Below, piece after piece: positions 105 through 20,255 of a DNA stretch of 32,000 nt (positions within the stretch are counted from its first letter, which is position 1; each line of letters opens with the position of its first letter). The stretch lies in the NCBI RefSeq assembly GCF_019464535.1, contig NZ_CP080507.1:900001-932000 (forward strand), in the 5' to 3' direction. Both the position numbers and the translations under genes were made by a program. This stretch comes from Horticoccus luteus. GTDB lineage: Bacteria; Verrucomicrobiota; Verrucomicrobiia; Opitutales; Opitutaceae. A model generated the notes under the pieces. That model made no database searches. It was given only the letters and a program-made list of their open reading frames with translations, and was not told where the DNA came from.

Positions 105-737
105 ATGAAGTGGCAATGTGCGGCCTTGGGCTTGCTGGCGTTGATGATCTGCGGTTGTCGCGATGATTCCACGACGCGGCCGGCGCGAAAAACCGAAATC
201 AACATGGATGCAAAAACCGAATCGATCGTGCTCGGCGGGGGATGTTTCTGGTGCACGGAAGCGGCGTATGAATTGCTGCCCGGCGTGACGGACGTCGTGA
301 GTGGTTACGCGGGCGGTGATGAACCGAATCCGACGTATGAAGCGGTGTGCGCCCACGCGACCGGCCATGCGGAGGTGGTGCAGGTGACGTTCGATCCGGC
401 GCAGGTTTCGCTGGAAAAAGTGCTCAATTATTTCTGGCAGATTCATAACCCGACCCAGGTGGGCGGGCAGGGCAACGATCACGGGCCGCAGTATCGGTCG
501 ATCATCCTCTACGCCGATGAGGCGCAGCGCGCGGCGGCGGAGGCCTCACGCGCGGAGGCGGCGAAGACGTTTCGCGATCCAATCACGACGGAGATCGTGC
601 CGTTGAAGAAATTCTGGCGGGCGGAGGAGTATCATCAGGATTACTTCCGGAAGAATCCGAACGCCGGTTACTGCAGCTATGTGATCGCGCCGAAGGTGCG
701 GAAGCTGGAGCACAAGCTGGCGGCGGAGCAGAAGTGA
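105..737 (+). CDS. msrA: Peptide-methionine (S)-S-oxide reductase MsrA with N-terminal lipoprotein-type signal peptide
   Basis: ORF 78..737. MsrA active-site block GGGCFWCTEA, followed by SGYAGG..NPTYE.VC...TGHAEVVQVTFDP and YHQDY. An in-frame ATG at 105 gives MKWQCAALGLLALMICGC (signal peptide with lipobox-like Cys). Start 78 vs 105 is unresolved. Confidence 0.9.
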   Translation: MKWQCAALGLLALMICGCRDDSTTRPARKTEINMDAKTESIVLGGGCFWCTEAAYELLPGVTDVVSGYAGGDEPNPTYEAVCAHATGHAEVVQVTFDPAQVSLEKVLNYFWQIHNPTQVGGQGNDHGPQYRSIILYADEAQRAAAEASRAEAAKTFRDPITTEIVPLKKFWRAEEYHQDYFRKNPNAGYCSYVIAPKVRKLEHKLAAEQK

Positions 738-753
738 CGGCGGGGGCGGAAGC

Positions 754-3700
754 TCATCGCGCTGATTCGAGCCAGCGGAGGTTGGCGTCGCGGTAATCGA
801 TGCGGCTGAGGTAGTATTTCGGAGTGCGGAATTCGAGCCAGCGGTTGCGGTCGGTGTTGATGCCGAAAGCGCCGGGGTAGCGCTGGAGCAGGCGGTCCAC
901 CCCCGGGGCATCGAGAAGCTGGGCGATCGCGAAGTTTTTGGGGTCCTGCACGCGCACCGCATCCCGGGCGGCGGCGAGGTCGGGCGCGGAAAGCCAGCGG
1001 GAGACCGTGACCATATTAAATTGCTGCGGCGTCACCGAGGCGAGGAGACAAGCCTGCCCGCCCACCTGCCAGACCGAGACGTGGTCGAATACGGCGCGGG
1101 CGGTGCCGAGGATGGTGCCGATTTCGCGGGCGCTCAGATGGTGGAGCTGGACCCATTGCACCAGCACGCCGCCGGGGGCGAGGCGGTCGCGTGCGAGCGC
1201 ATAGAACTCGCGCGAATAGAGATTGGTGGCGCCGGCATACCACACGGAGGTGAGTTCGATCTGGATGAGGTCGTAAGGCTCGCGGGCGCGCAGCAGGAAA
1301 TTGCGGCCGTCTTCGAGGTGGACGGCAACGTTGGCGCGGTCGAAAACGCCGGCGTTGATGCCGGCAAACTCCGCGCGCGCTCCCGCGATGTTGGCGGGGG
1401 AGAGATCAACGATGTCGACCCGGCCGAAGCCGAGACGGGCAATGACGGAGGCGGTCTGACCGGAACCGGCGCCGATGATGAGGGCGCGGTCCCGTGTGGG
1501 CGCGTGGGTGGCGGCGACGACGGCGAAGCCGACTTGGGCGGGGACTTCACCCGCATCATCGGCCTCGAATTTTCCGTTTTGCAGAAGAGTTTTGGTGATG
1601 CCGCCGTTGGCCCGGGGCGTGGCGGTGACAGTGACGAAGCCGGACTGAAAGTCTTCGGCGAACCAAAGCAACCGGGCTTGCGGGCTGAGTGACGGCTGCA
1701 GGTAGACGCCGAATCCGCGGGTGAGCTCGAGCCGGTTCCAAGGCGGTAAAACGGCGAGAAGGAGCAGGCCGGCGAGGCCGGGTGCGACCCACGCCAGGCG
1801 CAACGACCGGCGCAGGACAAGGGCGAGCCAGCCCGCAGCGGCGAGCAACGCGAAGCCCAGCAGCGTGTGTTCGGCGCCGAACGCGGGGATGAGGACGAAG
1901 CCCGTGACGAGCGCACCTCCGACGCAGCCGAGGACATTGGCGACGCTCAGGCGGGAGACATGAGCGCTGTCGCTTCTCGCGTCGAGCAGCAGGGGAAAGA
2001 TCCGGCCGAGCAGGAAAGCCGGAGGCAGCACGATCAGGCAGATCACGGCGAACTTGAACATTTCGCCGCTCCAGAACCACCGCAGCCCGAGCAGGCCGGC
2101 GAACCACGCGAGCATGCGGCCGGCCCAAGGCCAGAGAGCGTTGCTCACGGCCAGCGCGGCGACCAGCCAGCCGATGGTAGCAGGGAGCGAAGTAAACGCG
2201 CGCCGTGCGACGTCATGGGCGGCCAGCGTCAGCGCGAGCAGAACGGCCGCCAGCAGCCAGGAAAAGCTATACACACTGGCTCCGCAGACGGCGGCGATGA
2301 GGTGGAACCAGAGGACTTCCAGCGCGAAAAAAGCGAAGCCGGCGGCGAAGGACCAGAGGATGGGCTGAACGAGGGAGAGGTTGAAGCGTGGACCGGCGGG
2401 AGGATGGAAGGGAGGGACTAGTTTCGCCGGCAGTGATGCGGTTGTATCGGCGAGTGCTGTCACGGCCGCAACCGGCGCAGCCTGCACCGCGCCCAGTCCG
2501 GACCACAAAGCCACGCCGACAAACGCGGCGAGCAGGGCGGCAAACCAGAGTGCGCCGTTGGCCCCGATCGTATTGAACAGGAGCACCGGCGCGCCGAACG
2601 TAAAGGCAAAGGCACCGGCGAGGTTGATGGCGTAGTAGCGCGGCAGGGATCGGCCCTGCAAGTCACGGTGGCCGGCCAGCACGGCGGCGAGCGTGGGCAA
2701 CTCTGCTCCCATGGCGAACGTGGGAGGCAACAGCCAAATGACGGCAAGCGCGATGCGGACCAAGGTGAGCGAGGCGGCGCTGGTGCCGGTCGTCGCCAGC
2801 CATCCGCCCAAGACACGGTCGGCGGAGAAAAATCCGATCGCGAACAGCGCCGCCCACGCGCCGATGAACAGTTCGAGCAGTGCCAACCGGCGCACCGCGC
2901 CGACAGACCGCCGCGGGCAAAGCCATGCGCCGAGCGCGAGGCCGGTGAAGTAAACGGCGAGCACGATGGTCGCGGCCGGCCGGCTCGCGCCAACAAGCGT
3001 GGAGAGATATTTTTCGGCCACCTGTTCGAGAATCAGCGCGGTGCCGCCGGAGAAGAAGACGGCGCCGGCGAGCAGGCGGGCGGGAACGGCCGCGCGTGGG
3101 CCGGCAAACGGCGCGACGGCGGAAGAGACGGCTGCCGGCGCGGGCCGCGCCGGCCGGAACAATCTGAAAGCAACCCAGGCGGGCAGGCCGGAGACGATGA
3201 GCGCGGCAGGCCACGCGAGCCACGGCGGGATGGGTGCAAATTTACCCCAAAGCACCAGCACAAGGAGCGACAACGCGAGCGAACCGGCCAGGGTCCAGCC
3301 GAGCCGGCGGCGCACCGCGGGAGGCGCGCCGAGAGCCGGCAGCGGAGGATCGCCGGTGGGCGGGAAGCGGCGGATGCCGACGTCGGCCAGCCACCAGCAG
3401 AAGATCGTGAACGGCACGGCGGCGCAGACATCGACGAGGTAATGGACACTGAAAGTGAGCGTTGAAGCGATCTCGCCCAAGCCGAGCGGAAGCCAGAGCC
3501 AGAAGAGCCGGCGCCGGTGGCACCAGGCCGCGGCGAGCAGGGCGAGCGAGAACGCCACATGCAGCGACGGCATGACGTTGCGCAGCAAATCCGGACGGGT
3601 GATGAAGCGCTCGGGGCCGTCGAGCGCGGCCTCGCGGAGCGAAGCAAGCAAGGCGGGGTTGCGGGGGAGGGTGGACGCGGCCCGGTAAAGTTCAGGAAAC

Positions 3701-4542
3701 GCATAGGCCGGCCCCACCGCCGGCACGGCCCAATAGGTGATGTTACCGAGCAGCGCGATCAACAGGATCGCCAGCAGGCAACGGCGGAGGCCGGCGAAGT
3801 CGCGCGCGAAGTGCAGACTGGCCGCCACGCCGCCGATCAACAGTCCAAGCATCGGATAGACGCAGCGGGTGAGCGCGTCGGCCCAAGGATGAGCCGCGAC
3901 CCAGGAGGCGCAGACCTCAAGCGGATTGAAGCCGAACGACACGTCCATGCGCAGCAGGATGCGGTCCACGACTTCGGGCCGCGCCAGGCGGGTGGCGGAA
4001 AGCAGATATCCGCCGGTCAGGAGGTAAAAGAACAGTGTGCACCAGTGGCGGCCGACGTCGCGCGCGCAGGCGCCAATGTCACGCCAGCGTGTCAAACCTG
4101 TGACGGCCAGGACCAGGGTGAGGACCGCGCTCACCGCGAAGAGAGCGAGGATGAGCCCTTGGAGAAACCAGCTGGTCCACCGGTAACTCGTCCATACGAA
4201 GGCCTGCAACAAACCCGCGGTCAGTGCGAGGGAGAGAACGCCCCAAGTGATGCCGAGCGCCCGCCGGGGGACGGGCGGAACCCGGCGCAACAGCAGGGCC
4301 ATGAACACGACCACCACGGCGACAAAAATGCCGGCGCCAAAAGAGTCGGCGAGATGGGAGTAGGCCAGTTGGTCGAAGCGCGAGAAACGCAAATGCGTCG
4401 CCCGCATGGCCAGGGGAACGGCGACGCAGGCGGCGAGAAAGATCCAGACATCGGGTCGGCGCAGGACGCGCCGCAGCCAAAGGGAGAAGGCCGGCACGTC
4501 GTCCGGTATGCCGACGCGCGGGAGACGGGTCAAGCGCGGCAC
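754..4542 (-). CDS. Polytopic membrane fusion protein: PAP2_3 (AUR1/IPT1-like) domain + multi-TM domain + C-terminal spermidine-synthase-like (class I MTase fold) domain
   Basis: 1262-aa ORF starting at GTG 4542. Alternative starts are TTG 4533 (TTGA overlap with the upstream TGA stop) and GTG 4497. aa 325-328 PSLH and aa 367-371 HYLVD match PAP2 C2/C3-type motifs. From about aa 495, FFSGGTALILEQV... and many hydrophobic helices are typical of membrane-fused spermidine-synthase-like proteins. The last 243 aa carry IIGAGSGQ...VDIVDL...YDLIQIELTS...LYSREFY...PGGVLV. Confidence 0.8.
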   Translation of the reverse strand: MPRLTRLPRVGIPDDVPAFSLWLRRVLRRPDVWIFLAACVAVPLAMRATHLRFSRFDQLAYSHLADSFGAGIFVAVVVVFMALLLRRVPPVPRRALGITWGVLSLALTAGLLQAFVWTSYRWTSWFLQGLILALFAVSAVLTLVLAVTGLTRWRDIGACARDVGRHWCTLFFYLLTGGYLLSATRLARPEVVDRILLRMDVSFGFNPLEVCASWVAAHPWADALTRCVYPMLGLLIGGVAASLHFARDFAGLRRCLLAILLIALLGNITYWAVPAVGPAYAFPELYRAASTLPRNPALLASLREAALDGPERFITRPDLLRNVMPSLHVAFSLALLAAAWCHRRRLFWLWLPLGLGEIASTLTFSVHYLVDVCAAVPFTIFCWWLADVGIRRFPPTGDPPLPALGAPPAVRRRLGWTLAGSLALSLLVLVLWGKFAPIPPWLAWPAALIVSGLPAWVAFRLFRPARPAPAAVSSAVAPFAGPRAAVPARLLAGAVFFSGGTALILEQVAEKYLSTLVGASRPAATIVLAVYFTGLALGAWLCPRRSVGAVRRLALLELFIGAWAALFAIGFFSADRVLGGWLATTGTSAASLTLVRIALAVIWLLPPTFAMGAELPTLAAVLAGHRDLQGRSLPRYYAINLAGAFAFTFGAPVLLFNTIGANGALWFAALLAAFVGVALWSGLGAVQAAPVAAVTALADTTASLPAKLVPPFHPPAGPRFNLSLVQPILWSFAAGFAFFALEVLWFHLIAAVCGASVYSFSWLLAAVLLALTLAAHDVARRAFTSLPATIGWLVAALAVSNALWPWAGRMLAWFAGLLGLRWFWSGEMFKFAVICLIVLPPAFLLGRIFPLLLDARSDSAHVSRLSVANVLGCVGGALVTGFVLIPAFGAEHTLLGFALLAAAGWLALVLRRSLRLAWVAPGLAGLLLLAVLPPWNRLELTRGFGVYLQPSLSPQARLLWFAEDFQSGFVTVTATPRANGGITKTLLQNGKFEADDAGEVPAQVGFAVVAATHAPTRDRALIIGAGSGQTASVIARLGFGRVDIVDLSPANIAGARAEFAGINAGVFDRANVAVHLEDGRNFLLRAREPYDLIQIELTSVWYAGATNLYSREFYALARDRLAPGGVLVQWVQLHHLSAREIGTILGTARAVFDHVSVWQVGGQACLLASVTPQQFNMVTVSRWLSAPDLAAARDAVRVQDPKNFAIAQLLDAPGVDRLLQRYPGAFGINTDRNRWLEFRTPKYYLSRIDYRDANLRWLESAR

Positions 4543-6308
4543 CGCTCGCGACGGGCGAGCTGGCGGCGGCGCAGGGTGAGGGCGGAAAGGAAGGCAACGA
4601 CGCCCAATCCGAGCCCTACGGTTGCAGGTTCAGGTATGGCCGTGGCCGTGAGCTGGAGTGCGCTGCCGCTGACGGCGAAGCTGTAACTGTAGCCCGGGAG
4701 AGTCGTGCCGAGGGTGAAATCGTGGGCATCGAAGTTATCCACGGCGGCACCGGTGTAATCGAAGAGCGTGTAGGTGCCGGCGGAGAAGCCGCCGGAGTCG
4801 GTGAGGTTGAGCGTGACGGTGCCGCTGGATGGCCCGGTGAGTATGCCGCCGGAAACGCGGATGAGGTCGCTCGCGGTGCCGAGTTGAAAATCGAGGATTG
4901 AGCCGGCGTCGAGGATGAGTCCGCCGGTGAAGGTGAGCGTGCCGGGGGAATTGCCCGGAGCGAGGTGCGCGCCGGATTCGAACGTGGTGAGCCCACCGAT
5001 GAAGCCGCCGCCGCCGAGGGTGCCGCCGGAGTTCACCGTGACGGCGCCGGTGCCGGTGGCGGAGCCGGAGGTGTTGTTGGCCAGCAAGGTGCCGGCGGAA
5101 ATGGTGGTGCCCTGCGTGTAGTTGTTCAGGTCGCCGGAGAGCGTGAGGGTGCCGGCGCCTGATTTGGTGAGGGCGAAATTGGCGTAACCGCCGCCCAAGG
5201 TGCCGGAGAAGGTTTGAGTTTCGCTCGTGGCCACGGTGAGATGCCCGGCGGTGCCGCCGAAACTGTAAACGGTGCCGGCGCCGGTGAGGCCCGCGAGGGT
5301 GGTGGCGTGGTTGGAAATATCGAAATAGGCGCCGGACGCGACGGTGACTTGCGTCGAGGCCGAGAGGCCCTGATCGACCGTAGTCGGCAGCACGAGAAAA
5401 CCGTGAGCGACGTTGGTCTCTCCGGTGTAGGTCTGGGCCTGACCGAGACGGACGATAAGGCCATTGTTCGTTACGGCGCCCGTGCCGCTGATCACGCCGT
5501 TGAAGGTATAGTCATCAGAACGATTGAAGATGAGGGCGGCGTTGTTGGTGATATCGCCTGCGACCGAGCCGGAACCTCCGGCGTTGCCGAGTTGCAGTGT
5601 GCCGGCGGAAACGGTGGTGCCGCCGGTGTAGGTGTTGTCGTTGCCGAGCGTGAGCGTGCCGGAGCCGATTTTTGTGAGCGAACCTGCGCCCGAGAGCGCG
5701 CCGGAATACGTCGTAGCGGCATTATTGTTGCCGACGGAGAGCGCCACGGCGGCGGCGGAACCGTTGGCGAGCACGCCATTGCCCGAGCCGGAGAGACCGC
5801 CGAGCGTGGCGGCGGTAAGATTGCCAAAATCGATCTGGGATATGCGTTGAAGCGAAGAATTCTGAAGGGCCAAGGAGTGGCCGACGACCAGTTTGCCGTT
5901 GCCAGTCACCGTGGTGGCGCCGGTGAAGGTGTTGGCGGCGCTCAGCGTGAAAGACTCCGTTGCAGTGACCGTAAGGCTTGCCGTGCCGGTGAGCACCGCC
6001 GTGACCTCTCCGGACGTACCGGTGTAATCGCTCGAAGCATCGATGGTGCCGTTGGAGACAGTGCCACCATTGAAGATGGCGCTGACCAAGGTGACGGTGC
6101 CACCGCCGAGATCCGTGTCCGTCGGACCGTAGGTGGTCGTCGTCGCGCCGCTGCCGGTGTCGGTGCCACTGCCGGTTCCGCTGCCGGTGCTCGTGCCGGA
6201 GCCGACGATGCCGGAGCCGGTGGTTTGCGCGCCGCAGAAGCTGGCGAAGGCCAGGCACGTGAAAAATGTCAAGGCGATGGGCAGGCGGCGAAGCAGAAAG
6301 GCAGGCAT
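4530..6308 (-). CDS. Autotransporter-associated beta-strand repeat (PATR) protein with PEP-CTERM sorting signal
   Basis: ORF 4530..6356. ATG 6308 gives the signal peptide MPAFLLRRLPIALTFFTCLAFASFCGAQT. G/T/S/N-rich repeats of the type LTKSGAGTLTLSG.N.YTGGTT.SAGTL. C-terminus IPEPATVGLGLGVVAFLSALTLRRRQ (PEP motif + TM + Arg cluster). The C-terminal ~330 aa are paralogous to the end of 15739..20154. Confidence 0.85.
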   Translation of the reverse strand: MPAFLLRRLPIALTFFTCLAFASFCGAQTTGSGIVGSGTSTGSGTGSGTDTGSGATTTTYGPTDTDLGGGTVTLVSAIFNGGTVSNGTIDASSDYTGTSGEVTAVLTGTASLTVTATESFTLSAANTFTGATTVTGNGKLVVGHSLALQNSSLQRISQIDFGNLTAATLGGLSGSGNGVLANGSAAAVALSVGNNNAATTYSGALSGAGSLTKIGSGTLTLGNDNTYTGGTTVSAGTLQLGNAGGSGSVAGDITNNAALIFNRSDDYTFNGVISGTGAVTNNGLIVRLGQAQTYTGETNVAHGFLVLPTTVDQGLSASTQVTVASGAYFDISNHATTLAGLTGAGTVYSFGGTAGHLTVATSETQTFSGTLGGGYANFALTKSGAGTLTLSGDLNNYTQGTTISAGTLLANNTSGSATGTGAVTVNSGGTLGGGGFIGGLTTFESGAHLAPGNSPGTLTFTGGLILDAGSILDFQLGTASDLIRVSGGILTGPSSGTVTLNLTDSGGFSAGTYTLFDYTGAAVDNFDAHDFTLGTTLPGYSYSFAVSGSALQLTATAIPEPATVGLGLGVVAFLSALTLRRRQLARRERCRA

Positions 6309-6342
6309 CTTGCCTGGAATTATAGTGGCGGCGCGGCGCGGC

Positions 6343-6370
6343 GAATACCCCCACACGTGGGGGATTTTTT
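6343..6370 (-). promoter_or_regulatory. Conserved palindromic motif (candidate operator/promoter element), copy 1, upstream of PATR gene 4530..6308
   Basis: Plus strand cgaataCCCCCACACGTGGGGGatttttt. On the coding strand it is followed by TATTC, 18 nt, TATAAT (6324..6319), 10 nt, then ATG 6308. A near-identical element with the same spacing lies at 20229..20255. Confidence 0.4.
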
Positions 6371-6453
6371 AAGAGGGACGGAAAGGTGTTGCCTTGGACC
6401 GAGATGGCGGCCGTGGCCGAGCAGACCGGGGGAGGCGCCAGTCCCGCGCGTGG

Positions 6454-7224
6454 CTACGCGCGCCCGAGGCGGCGCAGGGCGAAGACGGTGGCGGCGTGGC
6501 GGTTTTCCTGGCCGAGCTTGCGCACGATGTTGGCGACGTGTTCCTGGATTGTCTGCAAGCTGCGCCCGAGGATCGCGGCGATCTCGGGGTTTTGTTTGCC
6601 CTCGGTCATCCAGAACAGGATATCCGACTCGCGCGGCGTGAGGCCGAGGGCGCGCAGCCGATCGCGGGGAGAGGGGGTCGAAGGCGATTTTTCCTGCCAC
6701 GGATTCTCGTAGCGGCGCCAAGCGAGGAGCAGGTGCGGGGCAAAGGCGTCGAGCAGGGCGCAATGCCGCGGGGTGAATTCACCGCGCCGGCGATCAAAGG
6801 CGAGACCGGCGACGGTGTGCTCGTCGAGCGCGAGCGGGAGGACGAGGGTGTGTCTGAAGCCGAGCCGCTGGAGGCAGTGGCGGTAGAATTCGCTCCGCCG
6901 GTATTGAACCGGATCGGTCACGTCGCACAGGCGCCGGGCGTGTTTGTCGCCGGTGCGATCGTAGTAGGCGACAAAGGCGTTTTCCTCGGGGTGCGAGACG
7001 TAGTAGGCGATTTCCTCGGGCCGGAAAGGGTTGGCCGGAAGGCTTTGATGGAGGATGCGGCCGGCGGCGCGGTCGATCACATGCAGGTGGCAGACGTCGG
7101 CCGGGATGAGACGGCTCATGCCGTTGAGCACCGCTGTGGTGAAGTCGGCATGGTCGCGCGCGAGGTTTATTTCATAAACGGCGTCAAAGAGCGGACGCCA
7201 CGCGCGCGGATCGATGCTGGGCAT
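6454..7224 (-). CDS. LuxR-family transcriptional regulator (N-terminal GAF-like sensor domain + C-terminal HTH)
   Basis: The C-terminal 256 aa of ORF 6454..8256, starting at ATG 7224 (MPSIDPRAW). LuxR HTH: LTPRESDILFWMTEGKQNPEIAAILGRSLQTIQEHVANIVRKLG. The upstream part of the ORF is R/P-rich and overlaps the neighbouring gene. Confidence 0.85.
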   Translation of the reverse strand: MPSIDPRAWRPLFDAVYEINLARDHADFTTAVLNGMSRLIPADVCHLHVIDRAAGRILHQSLPANPFRPEEIAYYVSHPEENAFVAYYDRTGDKHARRLCDVTDPVQYRRSEFYRHCLQRLGFRHTLVLPLALDEHTVAGLAFDRRRGEFTPRHCALLDAFAPHLLLAWRRYENPWQEKSPSTPSPRDRLRALGLTPRESDILFWMTEGKQNPEIAAILGRSLQTIQEHVANIVRKLGQENRHAATVFALRRLGRA

Positions 7225-7403
7225 GTGACGCTTGGCAATCAACTTGGGACAGCGGGGAAAGGCAAGGCGGCAGATGCACGGACGCGGCAGAGTCGCGAGC
7301 GCCGGCGCAAATATCGGGCGCGCTTTTGCGTGGGTAACCGGACGTTGAGCGGAGGCGCCGTCGAGTGTTGTCGGCGCAGGCAAACCACCGGATGGGCGGC
7401 CCC

Positions 7404-8909
7404 TCAGGCGGCGGGCGGGAGCACGAAGAGAAGAATCGCGAGGAGGTGGCAGGCGGTGCCGCCGAGGGCGAAAAGTTGACGCGCGGTCTGGTGATAACGC
7501 AGGCCGGGCCAGACGTGAAACGCGATGCCGGCGAGATAACAGGCGAGTCCACCGAAGAGCAGGCCGAGGCCGCCGCCGGGGAGCGTGGCTACGAGTGGCT
7601 TCAGTGCCACGCAGGCGAGGATGCCGACGAGCACATAGGCGACGCGGGAGATGATTTTCAGACGTTGCGCGAAGAAGAGGCGGAGGAGGGCGCCCGCGAG
7701 GCACACGCCCCAGACAACACCGAAGAGACTCCAGCCCCAGGCGCCGCCGATCTTGAAAAAGAACGGCGTAGCGGTCGCGGCGATGAGGAGAAAAATTGCG
7801 ACGTGATGGCGGCGGCTGAACGGCGCGCGGACCCGGCTCGCGCGAACGCGGCGGAAGTTGAGAAACGCGGAGTAGCCGAAAACGAGCGCGCTGCCGAAGA
7901 GAATGGCGCCGACGAGGACGCCGGGGCTGCTGTCGCGCAGCGCGGCGAAGGTGGTGGCGAGGACGAGTGCGGCGATGCTTGCGAGCAGGCCGGTGCCGAG
8001 CGACAGCGACTGGGCGAGACGTTCGCCGCGGGAATAGACGGGCGCGACGGCGGCTTGCGCGGCGGCGCGGCGGCGGTGGATGAGCGCATCGCTTTGCGCG
8101 TCGCACCAGCGGATGAGGGCGCAGGGGCGCGGACTGGCGAACTCGGCGGGCGTCCATTCGGCGCCGTCGGCATAGAGCGTTTTCGGCAGGATGAAGGTGC
8201 CGAGCAAGAGGTCGGCGACGGGGAGCGTGAAGAAGCCGGAGATGGCTTCGTTGCAATCGATGACGGCGTGGTGGCGGAGATGAAAGCTGTAGACCTTGCG
8301 CCAGAACCAGCCGAGGTGGCGGTGCTCGATGAGCGGCGCCCAGCGTTCAAACGACCAGTGTTCGATCGCGTGAAAGAGTTCGTAGAGGAGGAGCGACGTG
8401 GCGAGCGCGGCGTAACCGCCGAAAAACCACGGGAAGGCCGGCGCGAGCCATTGCGCGAGGGCGAGCAGCGGCGTCACGAGCGCGGCGAACACGGCGAACG
8501 TATACCACGGGAAGAAGGAGGCTTCGCCCTGTTCGGGCTCGAGGATCGGGTAGATGTTTTCGACGAAGGGCACGTCGCGTCCGCCGGGCGTGCGGCGGCG
8601 ACCGATGCGGGTCAGCGTGTGGTGCAGCGTGTGCTGTTTGTAGAAACGACTGAGAAACGGCACCACGGGCTTGTGGAGGACGTAGCGATGAAAAACGAAC
8701 TCCATGAAACAATTGAACAGCGAGACGAGGGCGAACACGGCGGCGAAACGGCCGAGTCCGGCGGAGAGTTGCGTGTGCCAGATGTCCGCGGGGACGGCGA
8801 AATAAAGCAGGGCGCTGAGGGCGGCGAACGAGGCGGCAACCGTGAGGAGAAAAAGCGGGAGCGAAAAGTGCTCCTCGACGCGATGCGCGCCGGCGGCAGG
8901 GGAAGACAT
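7404..8909 (-). CDS. Fusion protein: fatty acid hydroxylase superfamily (di-iron His-box) domain + hemolysin III/PAQR-like 7-TM domain
   Basis: 501-aa ORF, ATG 8909. His boxes HRYVLH (aa 74-79), HTLHH (93-97), HAIEH (180-184) and HLRHH (210-214). The C-terminal ~210 aa resemble Hly-III: RRHHVAIFLLIAATATPFF and GGLACYLAGIAFHVWPGLRYHQTARQLFALGGTACHLLAI. Confidence 0.8.
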   Translation of the reverse strand: MSSPAAGAHRVEEHFSLPLFLLTVAASFAALSALLYFAVPADIWHTQLSAGLGRFAAVFALVSLFNCFMEFVFHRYVLHKPVVPFLSRFYKQHTLHHTLTRIGRRRTPGGRDVPFVENIYPILEPEQGEASFFPWYTFAVFAALVTPLLALAQWLAPAFPWFFGGYAALATSLLLYELFHAIEHWSFERWAPLIEHRHLGWFWRKVYSFHLRHHAVIDCNEAISGFFTLPVADLLLGTFILPKTLYADGAEWTPAEFASPRPCALIRWCDAQSDALIHRRRAAAQAAVAPVYSRGERLAQSLSLGTGLLASIAALVLATTFAALRDSSPGVLVGAILFGSALVFGYSAFLNFRRVRASRVRAPFSRRHHVAIFLLIAATATPFFFKIGGAWGWSLFGVVWGVCLAGALLRLFFAQRLKIISRVAYVLVGILACVALKPLVATLPGGGLGLLFGGLACYLAGIAFHVWPGLRYHQTARQLFALGGTACHLLAILLFVLPPAA

Positions 8910-9092
8910 ACGACAGAGTCCGGGGCATCTGCGATAATAGCAATGGTGGAACCGGGCCTCCGTGGGGGCGTCGCGGTGTCAGGCGCGGCGGGCGAACGCG
9001 TTGCAGAGCTGCAGCGCAGAGGATATTTCGGCCGAAAGAATGGGCGGCCGGGGAATTGGGCCGACTGAGAGCCGGCGTATCCGCGACGCAGT

Positions 9093-9120
9093 TGTGGGGT
9101 GAGGTCACCCCGCCTACAGA
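9093..9120. repeat. REP-like palindromic element, copy A (core GGGGTGAGGTCACCCC at 9096..9111)
   Basis: tgtGGGGTGAGGTCACCCCgcctacaga, 22 nt downstream of the stop of the minus-strand gene 9142..9954. Related copies lie at 24769..24799 and 24818..24850. Confidence 0.7.
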
Positions 9121-9141
9121 CGAGAGCGGTTTCGTGCGCGG

Positions 9142-9954
9142 TCAGGCGCGGCGGCGGCGCCACGCGACGAAGCCCAACACACAGAGGCCGAGCACAGCAG
9201 CGTAGGTGGATGGCTCGGGCACGGCGGCGAGGGCGGGATTGGACAGCATGGACGTGTTGAACGTGCCGTCGGCGAAGGTGAAGAGCCGCGCTTCGTCGAT
9301 CGCGCCGGTGAAGTTGTCCGAGTGGGTGCTGTTGCCGAGCGAGAGGTAACCAGAGAGGAAATTGAAACTGGTGGCGGAGGAGCCGATGACGGTCTTTTGG
9401 TTGTCGAAATAGGCGTCGAGTGATTGGGCGTCAGCGTCGTAAACGAAGGCCGCATAGTGCCAGGCTGAGTCGGTGACGGTGGCGAAATTATCAACCGAGA
9501 TTCCGCCGCGGAGCACAGCCAGCGAGCCATTGTTCAAATACAAGCCGAGGCCGGAGCTGGCGGTGTCGCCATTATAAAAGAGCACTTGGGAACCGCCGGT
9601 GAGCGAGGGCACTTTGAACCAGAGCTCCATCGCGAAACTTTGCGAGGCGTTGAGGCTGGTGATGACGCTTTCCTGATAAGAGGCGGTGGACGCGAAATCA
9701 TAAGCCAGCGAGGAGCCCGGCGCGGCGGTTGCGCTCGTGTAGGTGCCGCCGGTGCCGATCTTGCTGGCGTCGTTGAGACCGGCCGAATCGACGGCGGTGG
9801 CATTCAAGGTGACCGCGTTGGCGGCCGCGCTATCGGCTTCGCCGCCGCGAAAAAGGCGAACGGTGGTTTGGGCCGAGAGGGCCGCGGTGGCGAATGACAT
9901 GACAACCGCGACGGGGATCAAGCGGACCAAGCAGCGCAGGGAGGCGGGTAACAT
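9142..9954 (-). CDS. LamG/concanavalin-A-like lectin domain protein with PEP-CTERM sorting signal
   Basis: ORF 9142..9999. ATG 9954 gives the signal peptide MLPASLRCLVRLIPVAVVMSFATAALSAQT. LamG-like features: ELWFKV....LFYNG, WHYAAFVYD, GAIDEARLF. C-terminus VPEPSTYAAVLGLCVLGFVAWRRRRA. Confidence 0.8.
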   Translation of the reverse strand: MLPASLRCLVRLIPVAVVMSFATAALSAQTTVRLFRGGEADSAAANAVTLNATAVDSAGLNDASKIGTGGTYTSATAAPGSSLAYDFASTASYQESVITSLNASQSFAMELWFKVPSLTGGSQVLFYNGDTASSGLGLYLNNGSLAVLRGGISVDNFATVTDSAWHYAAFVYDADAQSLDAYFDNQKTVIGSSATSFNFLSGYLSLGNSTHSDNFTGAIDEARLFTFADGTFNTSMLSNPALAAVPEPSTYAAVLGLCVLGFVAWRRRRA

Positions 9955-10090
9955 TGTGAATGAGGAGAAGATACCGTTCCGCGCAGGCGTCAAAGGCATT
10001 TACCGTGAACGGCGGCAGGTTGTGACGGCGCAGACGTTGGCTGGAAAATTTTGGGCTGGGGAAGCGGCGGCGGTTGGTTGAACGTGGGGC

Positions 10091-15738: not shown

Positions 15739-18700
15739 TCAGAGGCGAACGGGGCGCGCGGAGCGGCGGCGGCGCCACAGAGTCAGGGAGAGAACCGTGG
15801 CGCCGAGGAGCGCGGCGTAGGTGGCGGGTTCGGGGACGGCGGTGACGGCGGTGAGTTGCAACGTGCTGCCGCTGAAACCGAGCGTGTAGGTGTAGCCGGG
15901 GACGGTGGTGCCGAAGGTGAAGTCGGTGAGGTCGAAATTGCTCAGCGTGGCGCCGGTGTAATCGAAGAGAGTGTAGGTGCTGGCGGCGAAACCGCCGGCG
16001 TCGGTGAGGTTGAGGATGACGGTGCCGGAAGTGGGTCCGGCGAGGGGGCCGCCGGAGACGACGAGGAGGTCGCTGGTGGCGCCGAGCTGGAAGTCGAGGA
16101 CGGAGCCGGCGTTGAGGGTGAGGCCGTCGGTGAACGTCAACGTGCCGGGGGAGTTGCCGGGCGCGAGATGGGCGCCGGTGGCGAAGACGGCGGGTCCGCC
16201 GATGAAGCCGGTGCCGCCGAGGGTGCCGCCGTCCAGCACCGTGACGCTGCCGGTGCCGGTGGCGGAGCCGGCGGTGTTGTTGGCGAGGAGGGTGCCTTGA
16301 CTGACGGTGGTGCCGCCGGTGTAGGTGTTCGCGCCGGAAAGGGTCTGGGTGCCGTCGCCGGACTTGGTGAGCGCGAAATGGGGATCGGCGCCGCCGAGGT
16401 TGCCGGAGAAGACTTGGGACTGGTCGGCGGCGACCGCGAGGGTGAGGGTGCTGGCGGTGGAGTTGAAGCTGTAAACGGTGCCAGCGCCGGAGAGGCCGGC
16501 GAAGGTTTGATTGCGACCGGAGAGGTCGAGTTTGGCGCCGTTGGCGACGGTGACGACGGTGGAGGCGGAGAGCGTGTTGTCGGCGGTGGTCGGGAGGACG
16601 AGGATGCCGGTGTTGATTTGCGTGGGGCCGGTGTAGGTCTGGGCCGCGGAGAAGCGAACGATGTTGCCGTTGTTGGTCAGGCCGCCGGTGCCGCTGATGC
16701 TGTGGCCGAAGGTGTAGTCGCCGCTGCGATTGAAGACGACGGTGCCGTGGTCGGTGATGTCGCCGGCGACGGAACCGGTGGCGCCGCCGTTGCCGAGCTG
16801 GAGCGTGCCATCGACGATGGTCGTGGTGCCGGTGATGGCGTTGTCGCTGGTGAGAACGAGCGTGCCGCCTTGAATGCTCAACTGTCCGGAGCCGCTGATG
16901 GCACCGAAGTCGGTGCCTTGGGTGGTGGTGTTGGAGCGGTAGAAGGCGAGGGTGCCGTTATTGGTGATGGCGCTGACGGGGTTGAGGGAGCCGTCGACGC
17001 CGCCCAGGCCGAGTTGGAGGGTGCCGCCGCTGATGGTGGTGGGGCCGGTATAGACGTTGGCGCCGATGAGCATCTGCAGGCCACCGCCGGTCTTGATGAG
17101 GCCGAAGTCCGGATCGGCACCGCCGAGATTGCCGGAAAAGACTTGGAGCTGGCCGGCCGCGAGATCGAGCGTGAGCGCGCTGGTGGTGGAGGTGAAGCTG
17201 TAGATCGTGCCGCCGCCGGAGAGGCCGGCGAAGGTCTGGTTGCGGCCGGAGAGATCGAGTTTAGCTCCGCTGTCGACGGTGACGACGGTGGAGGCGGAAA
17301 GCGCGTTGTCGAAGGTGGTGGGGAGGACGAGGATGCCGGCCGAAAGGCGGGTGGGGCCGGTGTAGGTCTGCGCGGCGGAGAAGCGGACGATATTGCCGGT
17401 GTTGGTCATGCCGCCGGTGCCGGAAATGACGTTGTCAAAATGATAGTCGTCGGAGCGGTTGAAGGTGAGAGTGCCGTGGTCGGTGATGTTGCCGATGACG
17501 GCGGCGCCAGGGTTGAGGATGAGCGTGCCGGCCGCGATCGTGGTGCCGCCGACATAGGTCTGGGCTTGGGTAAGGGTGAGGCTGCCAGAACCGGTTTTGG
17601 TGAGCGAGCCGGCGCCGGAGAGAACGCCGTCGTAGGTGGTGTTGACGTTGTTGTGGCCGAGGGAGAGGGCGACGGCGGCGGAGTTGGCGTTGACGAGGGC
17701 GAGGTTGGCCGAGCCGGTGAGGCCGCCGAGCGCGGCGCTGGTCAAGGTGCCGAAATCGAAGGTGCCGCCATTGCGGATGACGATGGAATTTTGGAGCGCG
17801 TCGCTGTGGGCGAGGGTGACATTGCCGGCCAGGAGGGTGGTGGTGCCGGAGAACGTGCTGGCGCCGGAAAGGGTGAGCGTGCCGGCACCGGACTTGGTGA
17901 GCGAGCCGGTGCCGGAGAGGGAACCCGCGTAGGTGCCCGCAGAGGCTTGGTCGAAGACGAGGGCGGCGTTGCTGACGATGTCGCCCTGCAGAGAAGTGGC
18001 ATCGCCAACGAGTGTGCCGACGGAGACGGTGGTGCCGCCGGAGTAGGTGTTGGCGCCGGAGAGTGTGAGGGTGCCGGAGCCGGTTTTGGTGAGCGAGCCG
18101 GTGCCGGAGAGGGCGCCGGAGTAGGTGCCGTCGACGTTGCTGCCGCCGATGGTGAGGGCGACGGCGGCGGCGGATTCGTTGATGAGGGAGAGCGGAGCCG
18201 TGCCGGTGAGGCCGCCGAGGTTGGCGCTGGTGAGGTGGCCGAAACCGAGGCTGCCGGCGCTGACGGTGACGGTGGAATATTGGAGGGCGTTGGCGTCGCC
18301 GAGAACGAGGCTGCCCGCGGCGACTGTGGTGTCGCCGGTGAAGGTGTTCGCGCCGGCGAGGGTGAGCGTGCCATCGCCGGACTTGGTGAGAGCGCCCGAG
18401 CCAGCGATGATGCCGCCGTAGGTGAGGCCGGTGCCGGCGGCGGTGTCGAAGGTGCCTCCCGAGGCGCCGAGGGCGATGCCGCGGTTGGCGTTGAGTTCAA
18501 AGGTGGCGGTGGTGGCGAGCGTGCCGCCGTCGAGGGTGAGGCTGCCGGGTGTGGCGGTGGCGGGCGGCTGGCCGAGCGCGGAATCGGCGGGGATGGACAG
18601 CGTGCCGGCGGAAACGGTGGTGCTGCCGGAGTAGGTGTTGGTGGCGGAGAGCGTGAGGTTGTCGGTGCCAGTTTTGGTGAGCGAGCCCGTGCCGGACAGA

Positions 18701-20228: not shown

Positions 20229-20255
20229 GAATATCCCCACACGTGGGGTATATTC
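20229..20255 (-). promoter_or_regulatory. Conserved palindromic motif (candidate operator/promoter element), copy 2, upstream of PATR gene 15739..20154
   Basis: Plus strand gaatatCCCCACACGTGGGGtatattc. On the coding strand it is followed by TATTC, 18 nt, TATTTT (20210..20205), about 50 nt, then ATG 20154. A second CACGTGG lies at 20255..20261. Confidence 0.4.

What the first reader, a model, noticed from the sequence alone, without database searches (positions are those of the whole stretch)
754..8909. Same-strand cluster pairing two unusual membrane lipid-enzyme fusions with a LuxR-type regulator and a PEP-CTERM surface protein
Seen: there are four consecutive minus-strand genes. 8909-7404 is a FA_hydroxylase::hemolysin-III/PAQR fusion. 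7224-6454 is a GAF-like::LuxR-HTH regulator. 6308-4530 is a PATR/PEP-CTERM secreted protein. 4542-754 is a PAP2_3::polytopic::spermidine-synthase-like fusion whose candidate starts overlap the PATR stop or lie within 35 nt of it. Established: characterised members of all three enzyme families act on membrane lipids. The FA_hydroxylase superfamily includes sphingolipid, fatty-acid and ornithine-lipid hydroxylases. PAQR/adiponectin-receptor proteins have reported ceramidase activity. PAP2_3 includes the AUR1/IPT1 inositolphosphotransferases, which add head groups to ceramide. Inference: three such domains, a dedicated regulator and an exosortase-type cargo protein in one block look like an envelope or lipid head-group remodelling module. 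It may make or modify the membrane acceptor or anchor for PEP-CTERM cargo. I know of no described pathway with this composition.
Basis: partly seen in the sequence, partly recalled or inferred. Interest (0 to 1): 0.7.

Follow-up and report, generated by a model that had tools for sequence, protein, structure and literature searches.

The report
PEP-CTERM protein, lipid-phosphate enzyme, LuxR switch
The four genes are real but are not one unit: three form a conserved, undescribed module in which a LuxR-type switch controls a sortase-tagged surface protein and a membrane lipid-phosphate enzyme, while the fourth gene (a TrhA/PAQR fusion) is a widespread neighbour that happens to sit beside it.

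Summary
All four minus-strand genes exist at the stated coordinates, and most domain calls hold. A fifth same-strand PEP-CTERM gene (9142-9999) was missed.

The block is composite. The hydroxylase-like::TrhA/PAQR fusion (7404-8909) is already catalogued (NCBIfam NF047868). It is near-universal in Opitutaceae and normally sits in its own neighbourhood: NMN transporter, Hsp33-like, unk263, TrhA fusion, msrA. The other three genes are absent near it in about 70 of 80 species-level loci. This copy also lacks all three canonical PAQR zinc histidines.

The other three genes form a conserved module seen in about 16 loci (33-96% identity). A PEP-CTERM gene always lies directly upstream of the PAP2_3-coding part. 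This holds whether PAP2_3 is fused to MFS::SpdSyn (as here), split from it, or alone.

A 7-2-7 inverted repeat (CCCYCAY-GY-GTGRGGG) lies about 21-23 nt before a -10-like box in every GAF-LuxR locus. In the window it is at 6348-6363. Its 14-bp core recurs at 20235-20248, upstream of a second PATR/PEP-CTERM gene. No copy lies upstream of the TrhA fusion.

The biochemical role is inferred only: envelope or cargo modification tied to PEP-CTERM sorting. I found no description of this module.

The parts
754..4542 (-). Tri-domain membrane enzyme PAP2_3::MFS-like::SpdSyn-like (1262 aa). The PAP2_3 core is at about 3388-3957, the MFS-like 12-13 TM region at about 1753-3084, and the SpdSyn-like domain at about 763-1737.
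   Evidence: Pfam PAP2_3 7.5e-21 and Spermine_synth 2.2e-12. NF037959 scores 64 bits against a cut-off of 40. The catalytic motifs PSLH327 and H366-Y-x-x-D370 are invariant in 23 homologues. The AF2 model has pLDDT 81. The best PDB fold and sequence match is T. thermophilus SpeE 1uir. AUR1 9vj3 matches at E 0.009.
4530..6308 (-). PEP-CTERM surface protein with PATR beta-helix repeats. It has a signal peptide followed by an S/G/T-rich tract. Its stop overlaps the first candidate start of the PAP2_3 gene.
   Evidence: PATR 1.7e-18. The PEP-CTERM tail scores 19.1 bits. Orthologues in L087 and L090 pass PF07589. Start and signal peptide. Overlap with the next gene. S/G tract.
6348..6363 (-). 7-2-7 inverted repeat CCCCCAC-GT-GTGGGGG, the putative operator of the GAF-LuxR regulator. 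It lies 23 nt upstream of a perfect TATAAT box.
   Evidence: A match to CCCYCAYGYGTGRGGG is present downstream of LuxR in most GAF-LuxR module loci, with compensatory arm changes; L088 and L151 carry imperfect versions and L093 a shifted one. All 19 exact matches in 2.15 Mb of fetched loci are at modules.
6319..6324 (-). -10 hexamer TATAAT of the PATR-PAP2 operon, 10 nt before the ATG, implying a very short leader.
   Evidence: Read from the sequence. A TAnnnT-like box sits at the same spacing after the repeat in the related loci.
6454..7224 (-). GAF::LuxR-HTH transcription regulator (256 aa), EpsA-like in architecture.
   Evidence: GerE 2.7e-14 and GAF 2e-05. EpsA TIGR03020 scores 60 bits, below its cut-off of 170. 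Orthologues of 42-68% identity accompany the module in L091, L088, L093, L029, L094-L097, L099 and L151.
7404..8909 (-). Di-iron hydroxylase-like N-domain fused to a TrhA/PAQR 7TM domain (501 aa). It is an adjacent resident gene and not part of the regulon.
   Evidence: NF047868 452 bits and PRK15087 128 bits. There are 919 or more homologues, mostly annotated Opitutaceae. Its own conserved neighbourhood is shown. No operator lies upstream. The canonical PAQR zinc histidines are replaced.
9142..9999 (-). Laminin_G_3 plus PEP-CTERM protein. It has no operator and is conserved only in close relatives.
   Evidence: PF13385 4.7e-13, PF07589 3.9e-07. It appears in L001/L002 only.
20234..20249 (-). 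Second copy of the operator (core CCCCACGTGTGGGG identical), about 80 nt upstream of the 1471-aa PATR/PEP-CTERM gene, in a divergent intergenic region.
   Evidence: exactly two copies of the 14-bp core in the window, 0 expected by chance. The flanks are similar (TATTC-GCCGC), and a TTATTT box follows 22 nt later.
15739..20154 (-). Large PATR/PEP-CTERM protein (1471 aa), a probable second target of the same regulator.
   Evidence: PATR 9e-101. PEP-CTERM tail 25.8 bits. Operator upstream.

Best explanation
The block joins two unrelated units.

**Unit 1 (7404-8909).** This is the Opitutaceae-wide TrhA/PAQR protein with a di-iron hydroxylase-like N-terminal extension. It is a resident of the conserved neighbourhood NMN transporter, Hsp33-like, unk263, TrhA fusion, msrA.

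**Unit 2 (754-7224).** This is a regulon that occupies different genomic contexts in different lineages.
- A GAF-LuxR regulator is inferred to bind a 7-2-7 inverted repeat centred about 41 nt upstream of the start of transcription, which is the geometry of a class II activator.
- The regulator is inferred to switch on a two-gene operon.
- The first operon gene encodes a PEP-CTERM (exosortase-sorted) surface protein.
- The second encodes a polytopic enzyme with a periplasm-facing PAP2_3 His-His-Asp lipid-phosphate transferase/phosphatase domain. That domain is joined to an MFS-like domain and a spermidine-synthase-fold, nucleotide-cofactor-binding domain.
- The same operator precedes a second PATR/PEP-CTERM gene at 15739-20154.

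**Shown.**
- The domain identities.
- The invariable order 'PEP-CTERM gene, then PAP2_3 coding part'.
- The operator and its spacing to the -10 box.
- The independence of the TrhA fusion.

**Inferred.**
- The regulator binds the repeat.
- The enzyme acts in the envelope on the co-expressed cargo or on the lipid or glycan acceptor to which exosortase attaches it. The likely chemistry is transfer of a phospho-head-group, as in the AUR1 and sphingomyelin-synthase relatives of PAP2_3.
For: **The module is conserved without the TrhA fusion.**
- L087/L092, L088, L090, L091, L093, L096, L097, L151, L153, L154 and L156 carry the module with no TrhA fusion in the DNA held (up to 10 kb each side; less in L091, L153 and L154).
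- A PEP-CTERM ORF lies immediately upstream of the PAP2_3-coding part in every module locus.
- The background is 13 regex-detected PEP-CTERM ORFs in 1.38 Mb.
- The order survives gene fission: the split type is LuxR, MFS::SpdSyn, PEP-CTERM, PAP2_3.
- The order also survives a change of cargo family: PATR in some loci, choice-of-anchor R (NF041539) in others.

**Operator.**
- Sequences are listed.
- Exact matches occur only at modules, 19 sites in 2.15 Mb.
- Split loci carry a second copy before the PEP-CTERM gene.
- The window holds two identical 14-bp cores, with 0 expected by chance.

**PAP2_3 and MFS::SpdSyn belong together.**
- They recur fused in five more distant protein clusters.
- They are adjacent in other arrangements in L100, L116, L119, L123 and L125.

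**The TrhA fusion is independent.**
- In most of 80 genome loci it lies next to msrA, unk263 and Hsp33-like without the module.
- 324 genome hits encode a relative of the TrhA fusion.
- Only about 25 clusters hold the full tri-domain enzyme.
- Only 8 clusters at 50% identity match its PAP2 part at E <= 1e-30, out of 1.84 billion proteins.
Against: - No exosortase gene is in the window or in any fetched flank, so the link to sorting rests on the C-terminal signal alone.
- No transcript, binding or biochemical data exist for any part of the module.
- The TrhA-fusion-to-LuxR junction, on the same strand, is seen in two TrhA-tree clades: window/L001 and L029/L094/L099. This is more than random placement would give. 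It may reflect shared ancestry, since both clades have the same extreme GC skew, a local hot spot, or a weak functional tie.
- Counting helices suggests the SpdSyn-like domain could be periplasmic. That location is hard to reconcile with a SAM or dcSAM cofactor.
- Three lineages use a histidine kinase plus a GerE response regulator instead of GAF-LuxR, and they lack the repeat.
Confidence: 0.75

Rival explanations
1. One reading: all four genes, including the hydroxylase-like::PAQR fusion, form one lipid head-group remodelling pathway that serves PEP-CTERM cargo.
For: - All four genes are on the same strand and adjacent in the window and in its 90%-identity relatives.
- The TrhA-fusion-to-LuxR junction recurs in L029, L094 and L099, which carry the split form of the module.
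- The module lies within a few kb of the TrhA fusion in L017, L024 and L095.
Against: - About 70 of 80 species-level TrhA-fusion loci lack the module, and many have msrA directly after the TrhA fusion.
- The module is found elsewhere in at least 8 lineages.
- In L153 the module occupies the usual site but the TrhA fusion is absent.
- There is no operator upstream of the TrhA fusion, and a 179-nt gap separates it from LuxR.
- The PAQR domain lacks the zinc-ligand histidines.
- The loci with adjacency share an unusual GC skew, which suggests common descent.
Confidence: 0.1
2. The enzyme modifies the cargo protein itself, not a lipid acceptor. The periplasmic PAP2_3 domain would transfer a phospho-alcohol head group from a phospholipid onto Ser/Thr hydroxyls of the S/G/T-rich tract at the mature N-terminus of the co-encoded PEP-CTERM protein. 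The SpdSyn-fold domain would elaborate it further.
For: - 9 of 12 module-linked cargos, from both passenger families, have a tract with at least 60% S+G just after the signal peptide. The other PEP-CTERM proteins examined reach at most 0.56, apart from three further module-linked cargos (L017, L024, L029) that the census listed among the background.
- The PEP-CTERM and PAP2_3 genes are tightly coupled, with overlaps or gaps of 3-83 nt in most loci.
- The PAP2 motifs are predicted to face the periplasm.
- A related PAP2_3 domain is fused to a Sulfatase-family (LtaS/EptA-type) domain in P0348.
Against: - S/G-rich linkers are common in secreted proteins, and three cargos lack a strong tract.
- To my knowledge no PAP2-family enzyme is known to modify proteins.
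Confidence: 0.15
3. The PAP2_3/MFS/SpdSyn enzyme is a general membrane-lipid or polyamine-related enzyme with no mechanistic link to the PEP-CTERM protein. The two merely share a regulator that controls a surface or biofilm programme.
For: - Distant PAP2_3 plus MFS::SpdSyn pairs and fusions occur with no PEP-CTERM gene nearby: L100, L116, L119, L123, L125.
- EpsA-type regulators are described by NCBIfam as associated with PEP-CTERM systems in general.
- The operator also precedes PATR1471, which has no enzyme partner.
Against: - The order 'PEP-CTERM gene, then PAP2_3' is kept through fission, through fusion, through a change of regulator (GAF-LuxR or kinase plus response regulator) and through a change of cargo family.
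- That persistence is not expected from co-regulation alone.
Confidence: 0.2

Closest known systems
PEP-CTERM/exosortase systems with EpsA-type regulators (TIGR03020; Haft et al. 2006, PMC1569441, seen only as a reference listed)
   Same: - The C-terminal PEP motif, hydrophobic helix and Arg cluster on the cargo.
- A regulator with a GAF-like N-domain plus a LuxR HTH that gives a partial EpsA hit.
- Several cargo genes under one regulator.
   Different: - The regulator scores 60 bits against an equivalog cut-off of 170, so it is not EpsA.
- No exosortase or EPS biosynthesis genes are nearby.
- The partner here is a PAP2_3 enzyme, which I found in no paper together with PEP-CTERM.
PAP2_3 head-group transferases: fungal AUR1 IPC synthase (PDB 9vj3) and bacterial phosphoinositol dihydroceramide synthase (NF052609)
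   Same: - A PF14378 domain above the gathering score.
- The conserved PSxH and HYxxD motifs, giving the His-His-Asp triad.
   Different: - Resemblance is only at superfamily level: AUR1 E 0.009, and NF052609 24 bits against a cut-off of 480.
- The domain is fused to MFS-like and SpdSyn-like domains.
- No sphingolipid genes are nearby.
- The substrate is unknown.
Fused MFS/spermidine synthase family (NCBIfam NF037959; COG4262-type 'membrane-bound spermidine synthase')
   Same: - The C-terminal 800 residues pass the subfamily cut-off.
- They align at 24-38% identity over 760 or more residues with stand-alone members, which are named in Polyangiaceae, Myxococcota and Pseudomonas.
   Different: - An extra N-terminal PAP2_3 domain is present here.
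- The family has no characterised member that I could find.
Polyamine aminopropyltransferase SpeE (T. thermophilus 1uir/3anx)
   Same: - The same fold, including the N-terminal beta-hairpin domain.
- The GxGxG motif and the cofactor-binding acidic positions are kept.
   Different: - GGGEG is replaced by GAGSG, and IDLTDP by IELTSV.
- The dcSAM-selective acid and the amine-binding Asp are therefore lost.
- All SpeE equivalog cut-offs are missed.
TrhA (bacterial PAQR; E. coli YqfA, B. subtilis YplQ; PMC9017321) and the NCBIfam 'TrhA extension/companion domain' NF047868
   Same: - The C-terminal 200 residues are 33% identical to E. coli TrhA and pass PRK15087.
- The N-terminal 270 residues pass NF047868 at 452 bits.
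   Different: - The canonical motifs SxxxH, D and HxxxH read FxxxR, H and QxxxQ in this copy.
- The family consensus keeps only one of the three His.
- TrhA itself has only a physiological phenotype, in membrane energetics, and no known reaction.
LuxR-type class II activation at a lux box (from general knowledge)
   Same: - A dyad-symmetric 16-bp site that overlaps the -35 region, at a fixed distance from the -10 box.
- A regulator with a ligand-binding N-domain and a GerE HTH.
   Different: - The N-domain is GAF-like rather than an autoinducer-binding domain.
- The ligand is unknown.
- Binding has not been tested.

Membership tests
PAP2_3 (PF14378) | Score above the Pfam gathering threshold | tested here: met
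   75.2 bits against 27.
PAP2_3 (PF14378) | Catalytic His (C2), and His and Asp (C3), of the PAP2 superfamily | tested here: met
   P324-S-L-H327 and H366-Y-x-x-D370 are invariant in 23 homologues.
Fused MFS/spermidine synthase (NF037959) | Score above the NCBIfam subfamily cut-off | tested here: met
   64.1 bits against 40.
Polyamine aminopropyltransferase SpeE (TIGR00417, PRK00811, PRK03612) | Equivalog cut-off | tested here: not met
   44-76 bits against cut-offs of 250-472.
Polyamine aminopropyltransferase SpeE (TIGR00417, PRK00811, PRK03612) | Acidic residue in GGG(D/E)G, and the two Asp of the (V/I)D(S/L)(S/T)DP motif | tested here: not met
   The motifs read GAGSG and IELTSV, so only the first acid is conserved, as Glu. 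This comes from the alignment to 1uir. The role of these residues is from general knowledge.
TrhA / PAQR (PRK15087, PF03006) | Family model score | tested here: met
   PRK15087 scores 127.9 bits against 80. Pfam HlyIII gives no hit for this copy, and 8 of 30 homologues hit it.
TrhA / PAQR (PRK15087, PF03006) | Canonical zinc-site motifs SxxxH (TM2), D (TM3) and HxxxH (TM7) | tested here: not met
   The pairwise alignment to E. coli TrhA gives F348..R352, H367 and Q473..Q477. The assignment of these residues as zinc ligands is from general knowledge of the AdipoR structures.
TrhA extension/companion domain (NF047868) | Domain model cut-off | tested here: met
   452 bits against 200, covering residues 12-281.
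FA_hydroxylase (PF04116) | Pfam gathering threshold | tested here: not met
   16.5 bits against 31. 16 of 30 homologues reach E <= 0.01.
FA_hydroxylase (PF04116) | Histidine boxes of membrane di-iron enzymes | tested here: met
   H73xxxxH78, H92xxH95H96, H179xxxH183 and H209xxH212H213 are invariant.
PEP-CTERM sorting signal (PF07589 / TIGR02595) | C-terminal PEP motif, TM helix and basic cluster scoring above threshold | tested here: inconclusive
   The PATR608 tail scores 19.1 bits against 20.7. Orthologues score 21.7 and 23.2 bits. The motif is visible by eye.
PEP-CTERM/exosortase system | A cognate exosortase (EpsH/Xrt) in the genome | not testable with these tools
   None is in the 32-kb window or in the fetched flanks. 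The whole genome is not available.
EpsA regulator (TIGR03020) | Equivalog cut-off | tested here: not met
   60.1 bits against 170, covering residues 117-245 only.
LuxR/GerE HTH regulator with GAF sensor | GerE and GAF domains above the gathering score | tested here: met
   GerE 52.9 bits against 23.5, and GAF 25.6 bits against 22.4.
LuxR/GerE HTH regulator with GAF sensor | Binding to the dyad-symmetric operator at the target promoters | not testable with these tools
   Only the conserved 7-2-7 repeat and its spacing to the -10 box are shown.

The most novel reading that the evidence does not exclude
A PAP2_3 lipid-phosphate transferase, often joined to an MFS-like and a SpdSyn-fold domain, is a dedicated partner of particular PEP-CTERM proteins. 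It would either build the phospholipid-derived acceptor or anchor onto which exosortase transfers the cargo, or it would phospho-modify the cargo's S/G-rich tract. This would be the first enzyme chemistry tied to PEP-CTERM sorting. It would come with a ready-made genetic handle: the GAF-LuxR regulator and its 7-2-7 operator.
Probability: 0.3. Interest if true: 0.75.

Novelty: new variant of a known kind. Interest (0 to 1): 0.55.

Why it matters
What exosortases attach PEP-CTERM proteins to, and which accessory enzymes take part, is still unresolved. The archaeal counterpart, ArtA, is known to need lipid head-group biosynthesis enzymes (general knowledge).

This module offers a compact, testable system for that question:
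- It is rare but strictly conserved.
- It keeps a PEP-CTERM gene glued to a periplasm-facing lipid-phosphate transferase.
- It sits under a recognisable regulator and operator.

The result also warns that the eye-catching 'two lipid-enzyme fusions' pairing is mostly an accident of neighbourhood. Both fusions are already catalogued as families in NCBIfam.

Tried and rejected
- **PDB profile search, TrhA-fusion family.** No hit at E <= 1.
- **AF2 model of the TrhA fusion.** pLDDT was only 67. Foldseek gave AdipoR1 as a marginal top hit (E 4.6e-3) and nothing for the N-domain. I used it only as weak support for the PAQR fold.
- **Terminator and promoter consensus scan, 500-10200.** No intergenic terminator was found and counts were near the shuffle expectation. 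It was uninformative for operon limits.
- **tRNA and Rfam scans.** Empty.
- **Exact look-up of the window's TrhA fusion.** Not on record.
- **Neighbourhoods of distant stand-alone MFS::SpdSyn proteins (P0155, P0146).** No recurrent partner was seen.
- **Literature searches.** 'PEP-CTERM + PAP2' and 'fused MFS + spermidine synthase' returned nothing. 'PEP-CTERM + exosortase + spermidine synthase' returned one irrelevant Geobacter transcriptome paper.
- **The repeat as an intrinsic terminator of the LuxR gene.** Rejected for three reasons:
  - No T-run follows it.
  - It keeps a fixed spacing to a -10 box.
  - One copy lies in a divergent promoter region, where no co-oriented gene ends.
- **A single monophyletic origin of the TrhA-fusion/module adjacency.** The NJ tree of TrhA fusions puts the two adjacent groups in separate clades. 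The tree has no support values, so this stays open.

Full report
**1. What is in the sequence**

The window is 67% GC. The minus strand between 754 and 9999 carries five consecutive ORFs with third-position GC of 0.80-0.83, typical of real genes here.

- **754-4542.** This 1262-aa protein has PAP2_3 (75 bits) at residues 196-385 and Spermine_synth (47 bits) at residues 1011-1157. Its C-terminal two thirds pass the NCBIfam subfamily 'fused MFS/spermidine synthase' (64 bits against 40).
- **4530-6308.** This protein has a signal peptide, an S/G/T-rich tract, PATR repeats and a PEP-CTERM-type tail. The tail scores 19.1 bits against a gathering score of 20.7, and its orthologues pass. Its stop overlaps the first candidate start of the next gene.
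- **6454-7224.** This is a GAF plus GerE/LuxR regulator with a partial, sub-threshold EpsA match.
- **7404-8909.**
  - Pfam gives FA_hydroxylase only 16.5 bits (cut-off 31) and gives HlyIII nothing.
  - NCBIfam gives 'TrhA extension/companion domain' NF047868 at 452 bits and TrhA PRK15087 at 128 bits.
  - Four histidine boxes are invariant across 30 homologues.
- **9142-9999.**

Two caveats apply: the FA_hydroxylase::PAQR architecture is already a curated family, and only the PATR and PAP2 genes are tightly coupled. The other gaps are 145 and 179 nt.

**2. Is the four-gene block conserved?**

Homologues of the TrhA fusion are abundant: 919 or more, mostly annotated Opitutaceae, at 50-90% identity. 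A scan of one genome per species returned 324 confirmed loci, and I examined the best 80 with 10-kb flanks. A tblastn census with all window proteins gave three results.

- The usual context is NMN transporter, Hsp33-like, unk263, TrhA fusion, msrA, often with msrA directly after the TrhA fusion.
- The LuxR, PATR and PAP2/SpdSyn genes are absent from about 70 of the 80 loci.
- At 68% identity, the gene after the TrhA fusion is an unrelated DUF6797/cytochrome protein.

Only the 90%-identity relatives keep the whole block.

**3. What is conserved instead**

I then searched from the tri-domain enzyme. Only about 25 clusters hold the full fusion. An exhaustive HMMER pass over 1.84 billion representatives found 8 clusters at E <= 1e-30 for its PAP2 part. 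A metagenome scan was analysed. The module appears in three forms.

- **Fused.** A PEP-CTERM gene is followed by PAP2_3::MFS::SpdSyn. This form is in the window, L091, L087, L090, L088, L093 and L156.
- **Split.** The order is LuxR, MFS::SpdSyn, PEP-CTERM, PAP2_3. This form is in L029, L094-L097, L099, L017 and L024 (ORFs).
- **PAP2_3 alone.** It still has its upstream PEP-CTERM gene. This form is in L151, L153 and L154.

In every case the PEP-CTERM gene sits immediately upstream of the PAP2_3-coding part. By contrast, a simple C-terminal regex finds only 13 such ORFs in 1.38 Mb of Opitutaceae flanks.

The cargo's passenger domain differs between lineages. It is PATR in some and choice-of-anchor R (NF041539) in others. 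The regulator differs too: it is GAF-LuxR in most lineages, and a divergent HisKA kinase plus a GerE response regulator in L087, L090 and L156. The gene order nevertheless persists.

PAP2_3 and MFS::SpdSyn are also linked outside this clade.
- Five more distant tri-domain proteins exist.
- The two genes are adjacent in divergent or convergent orientation in L100, L116 and L125, and on the same strand in L119 and L123.

**4. A conserved operator**

The DNA downstream of the LuxR gene carries a 7-2-7 inverted repeat in every GAF-LuxR module locus.

- It reads CCCCCAC-GT-GTGGGGG in the window (6348-6363) and CCCTCAC-GY-GTGAGGG in most others. The arm changes are compensatory.
- Exact matches to CCCYCAYGYGTGRGGG occur at 19 sites in 2.15 Mb of fetched DNA, all at modules.
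- Split-type loci carry a second copy just before the PEP-CTERM gene.
- A TAnnnT box follows at a constant 21-23 nt. In the window it is a perfect TATAAT at 6319-6324.
- That spacing puts the dyad at about -41, the geometry of a class II LuxR-type activator (inference).

The 14-bp core occurs exactly twice in the window, with 0 expected by chance. The second copy, at 20235-20248, lies in the divergent promoter region of the 1471-aa PATR/PEP-CTERM gene and has similar flanks. No copy precedes the TrhA fusion or the Laminin_G PEP-CTERM gene.

A terminator reading is unlikely. No T-run follows the repeat, the spacing to the -10 box is fixed, and one copy lies where no co-oriented gene ends.

**5. 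The TrhA fusion as a neighbour**

The module lies next to the TrhA fusion in two groups: window/L001, and L017/L024/L029/L094/L095/L099. These are separate clades in an unsupported NJ tree. In three loci of the second group the same TrhA-to-LuxR junction is seen.

Both groups, and only they, share an extreme GC skew of 0.19-0.36, which suggests common descent. Within this region the module occupies different junctions:
- between the TrhA fusion and msrA in the window;
- between Hsp33-like and unk263 in L095;
- between the TrhA fusion and unk263 in L099.

In L153 the module occupies the region while the TrhA fusion is missing. I read this as an ancestral or hot-spot location, not a functional tie.

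**6. Active-site checks**

- **PAP2_3.** PSLH327 and H366YxxD370 are invariant. A profile search weakly reaches AUR1 (E 0.009).
- **SpdSyn-fold domain.**
  - The best sequence and fold match is T. thermophilus SpeE.
  - GGGEG is replaced by GAGSG, and IDLTDP by IELTSV.
  - Two of the three acidic residues that define aminopropyltransferases are therefore gone, while the nucleotide-binding glycines are kept.
  - It is probably a cofactor-binding enzyme or module of unknown reaction.
- **PAQR domain.**
  - Alignment to E. coli TrhA (33% identity) shows SxxxH replaced by F348..R352, D by H367 and HxxxH by Q473..Q477.
  - The family consensus keeps only the last His.
  - A zinc-dependent, ceramidase-like activity is thus not supported for this copy.
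- **Topology.**
  - The AF2 model of residues 64-1262 is good (pLDDT 81).
  - Helix counting with the positive-inside rule puts the PAP2 motifs on the periplasmic side.
  - It also gives 12 MFS-like helices plus a 13th, which would place the SpdSyn-fold domain in the periplasm as well.
  - I regard this last point as uncertain.

**7. Mechanism**

*Shown.*
- A regulator gene lies beside a lineage-covarying dyad operator that sits at fixed spacing before a -10 box.
- Downstream is an operon of a PEP-CTERM protein and a PAP2_3-containing enzyme.
- A second PEP-CTERM gene in the window carries the same operator.

*Inferred.*
- A ligand sensed by the GAF domain activates a small surface-protein programme.
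- The enzyme works in the envelope on the co-expressed cargo or on its acceptor.

Two concrete versions fit the data. In the first, the enzyme makes or trims a phospholipid-derived acceptor or anchor for exosortase. In the second, it transfers a phospho-head-group onto the cargo's S/G-rich tract, which is present in 9 of 12 module-linked cargos. Mere co-regulation without a shared substrate remains possible at about 20%.

**8. Comparison with known systems and novelty**

- Both fusions fall in families that NCBI already models: NF047868 plus TrhA, and NF037959.
- TrhA has only a physiological description, in membrane energetics (PMC9017321).
- I found no paper on fused MFS/spermidine synthases, or on PAP2 enzymes together with PEP-CTERM proteins.
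- The regulator resembles EpsA in architecture but fails its cut-off.
- The module is best described as a new accessory variant of PEP-CTERM/exosortase-linked gene sets.
- It is rare, confined mainly to Opitutaceae-like Verrucomicrobiota, and has a clear genetic handle.

**9. Verdict**

The cargo, enzyme and regulator are linked, but the TrhA/PAQR fusion is not part of the unit. The labels 'ceramidase-like' and 'spermidine synthase' over-read degenerate sites.
- Interest is moderate at 0.55. It is a concrete lead into the open question of what accompanies exosortase sorting, but its biochemistry is entirely inferred.

Noticed in passing
window 1-32000; loci L001, L002, L017, L024, L029, L095, L099: The strand composition asymmetry is extreme. 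GC skew averages +0.26 over the window and reaches 0.35, whatever the gene orientation. The same magnitude appears only in the lineages where the module sits near the TrhA fusion. Other Opitutaceae loci show 0.01-0.17.
   Followed up: partly
window 10091-10882 (+): A 263-aa protein has no Pfam or NCBIfam hit. It is the usual divergent neighbour of the TrhA-fusion gene across Opitutaceae at 61-80% identity, so it may be the TrhA fusion's true functional partner.
   Followed up: no
window 7404-8045 (PAQR domain of the TrhA fusion): This copy and its closest relatives have replaced His at four positions that most family members keep (H299Q, H303L, H477Q, and N367H at the Asp position). All three canonical PAQR zinc histidines are absent.
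   Followed up: partly
window 20234-20249 and 15739-20154: A second copy of the LuxR-type operator lies upstream of a 1471-aa PATR/PEP-CTERM gene, 14 kb from the first. This suggests a small regulon of PEP-CTERM adhesin-like proteins. The annotated GTG start of the divergent MscS-like ORF (20243) overlaps the site.
   Followed up: partly
L087 8080-8270; L090 8190-8340; L156: Three module lineages replace GAF-LuxR with a divergent HisKA kinase plus a GerE response regulator. Upstream of the cargo gene, L087 and L090 carry a different repeat (GGACAAATGTCC / TAGGAGAT...TAGGAGAT); the L156 upstream region was not read.
   Followed up: no
L153 5800-12100: The PEP-CTERM plus PAP2_3 pair, with a decayed SpdSyn remnant and a split GerE gene, lies between unk263 and msrA, where the TrhA fusion normally sits. 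No TrhA fusion is present there.
   Followed up: partly
P0348 (995 aa): A related PAP2_3 domain is fused to a Sulfatase-family domain (LtaS/EptA-type head-group transferases). This hints that the PAP2_3 subfamily works with periplasmic head-group transfer chemistry.
   Followed up: no
window 4530-6308 and positional equivalents in L001, L087, L088, L090, L091, L096, L097, L153: Module-linked PEP-CTERM cargos of two unrelated passenger families share an S/G/T-rich tract, in most just after the signal peptide (internal in L088). An example is TGSGIVGSGTSTGSGTGSGTDTGSG.
   Followed up: partly
L017 1-8600: This locus holds duplicated and rearranged module parts: two MFS::SpdSyn segments, two PAP2_3 segments and two operators. 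This indicates local duplication and recombination of the module.
   Followed up: no
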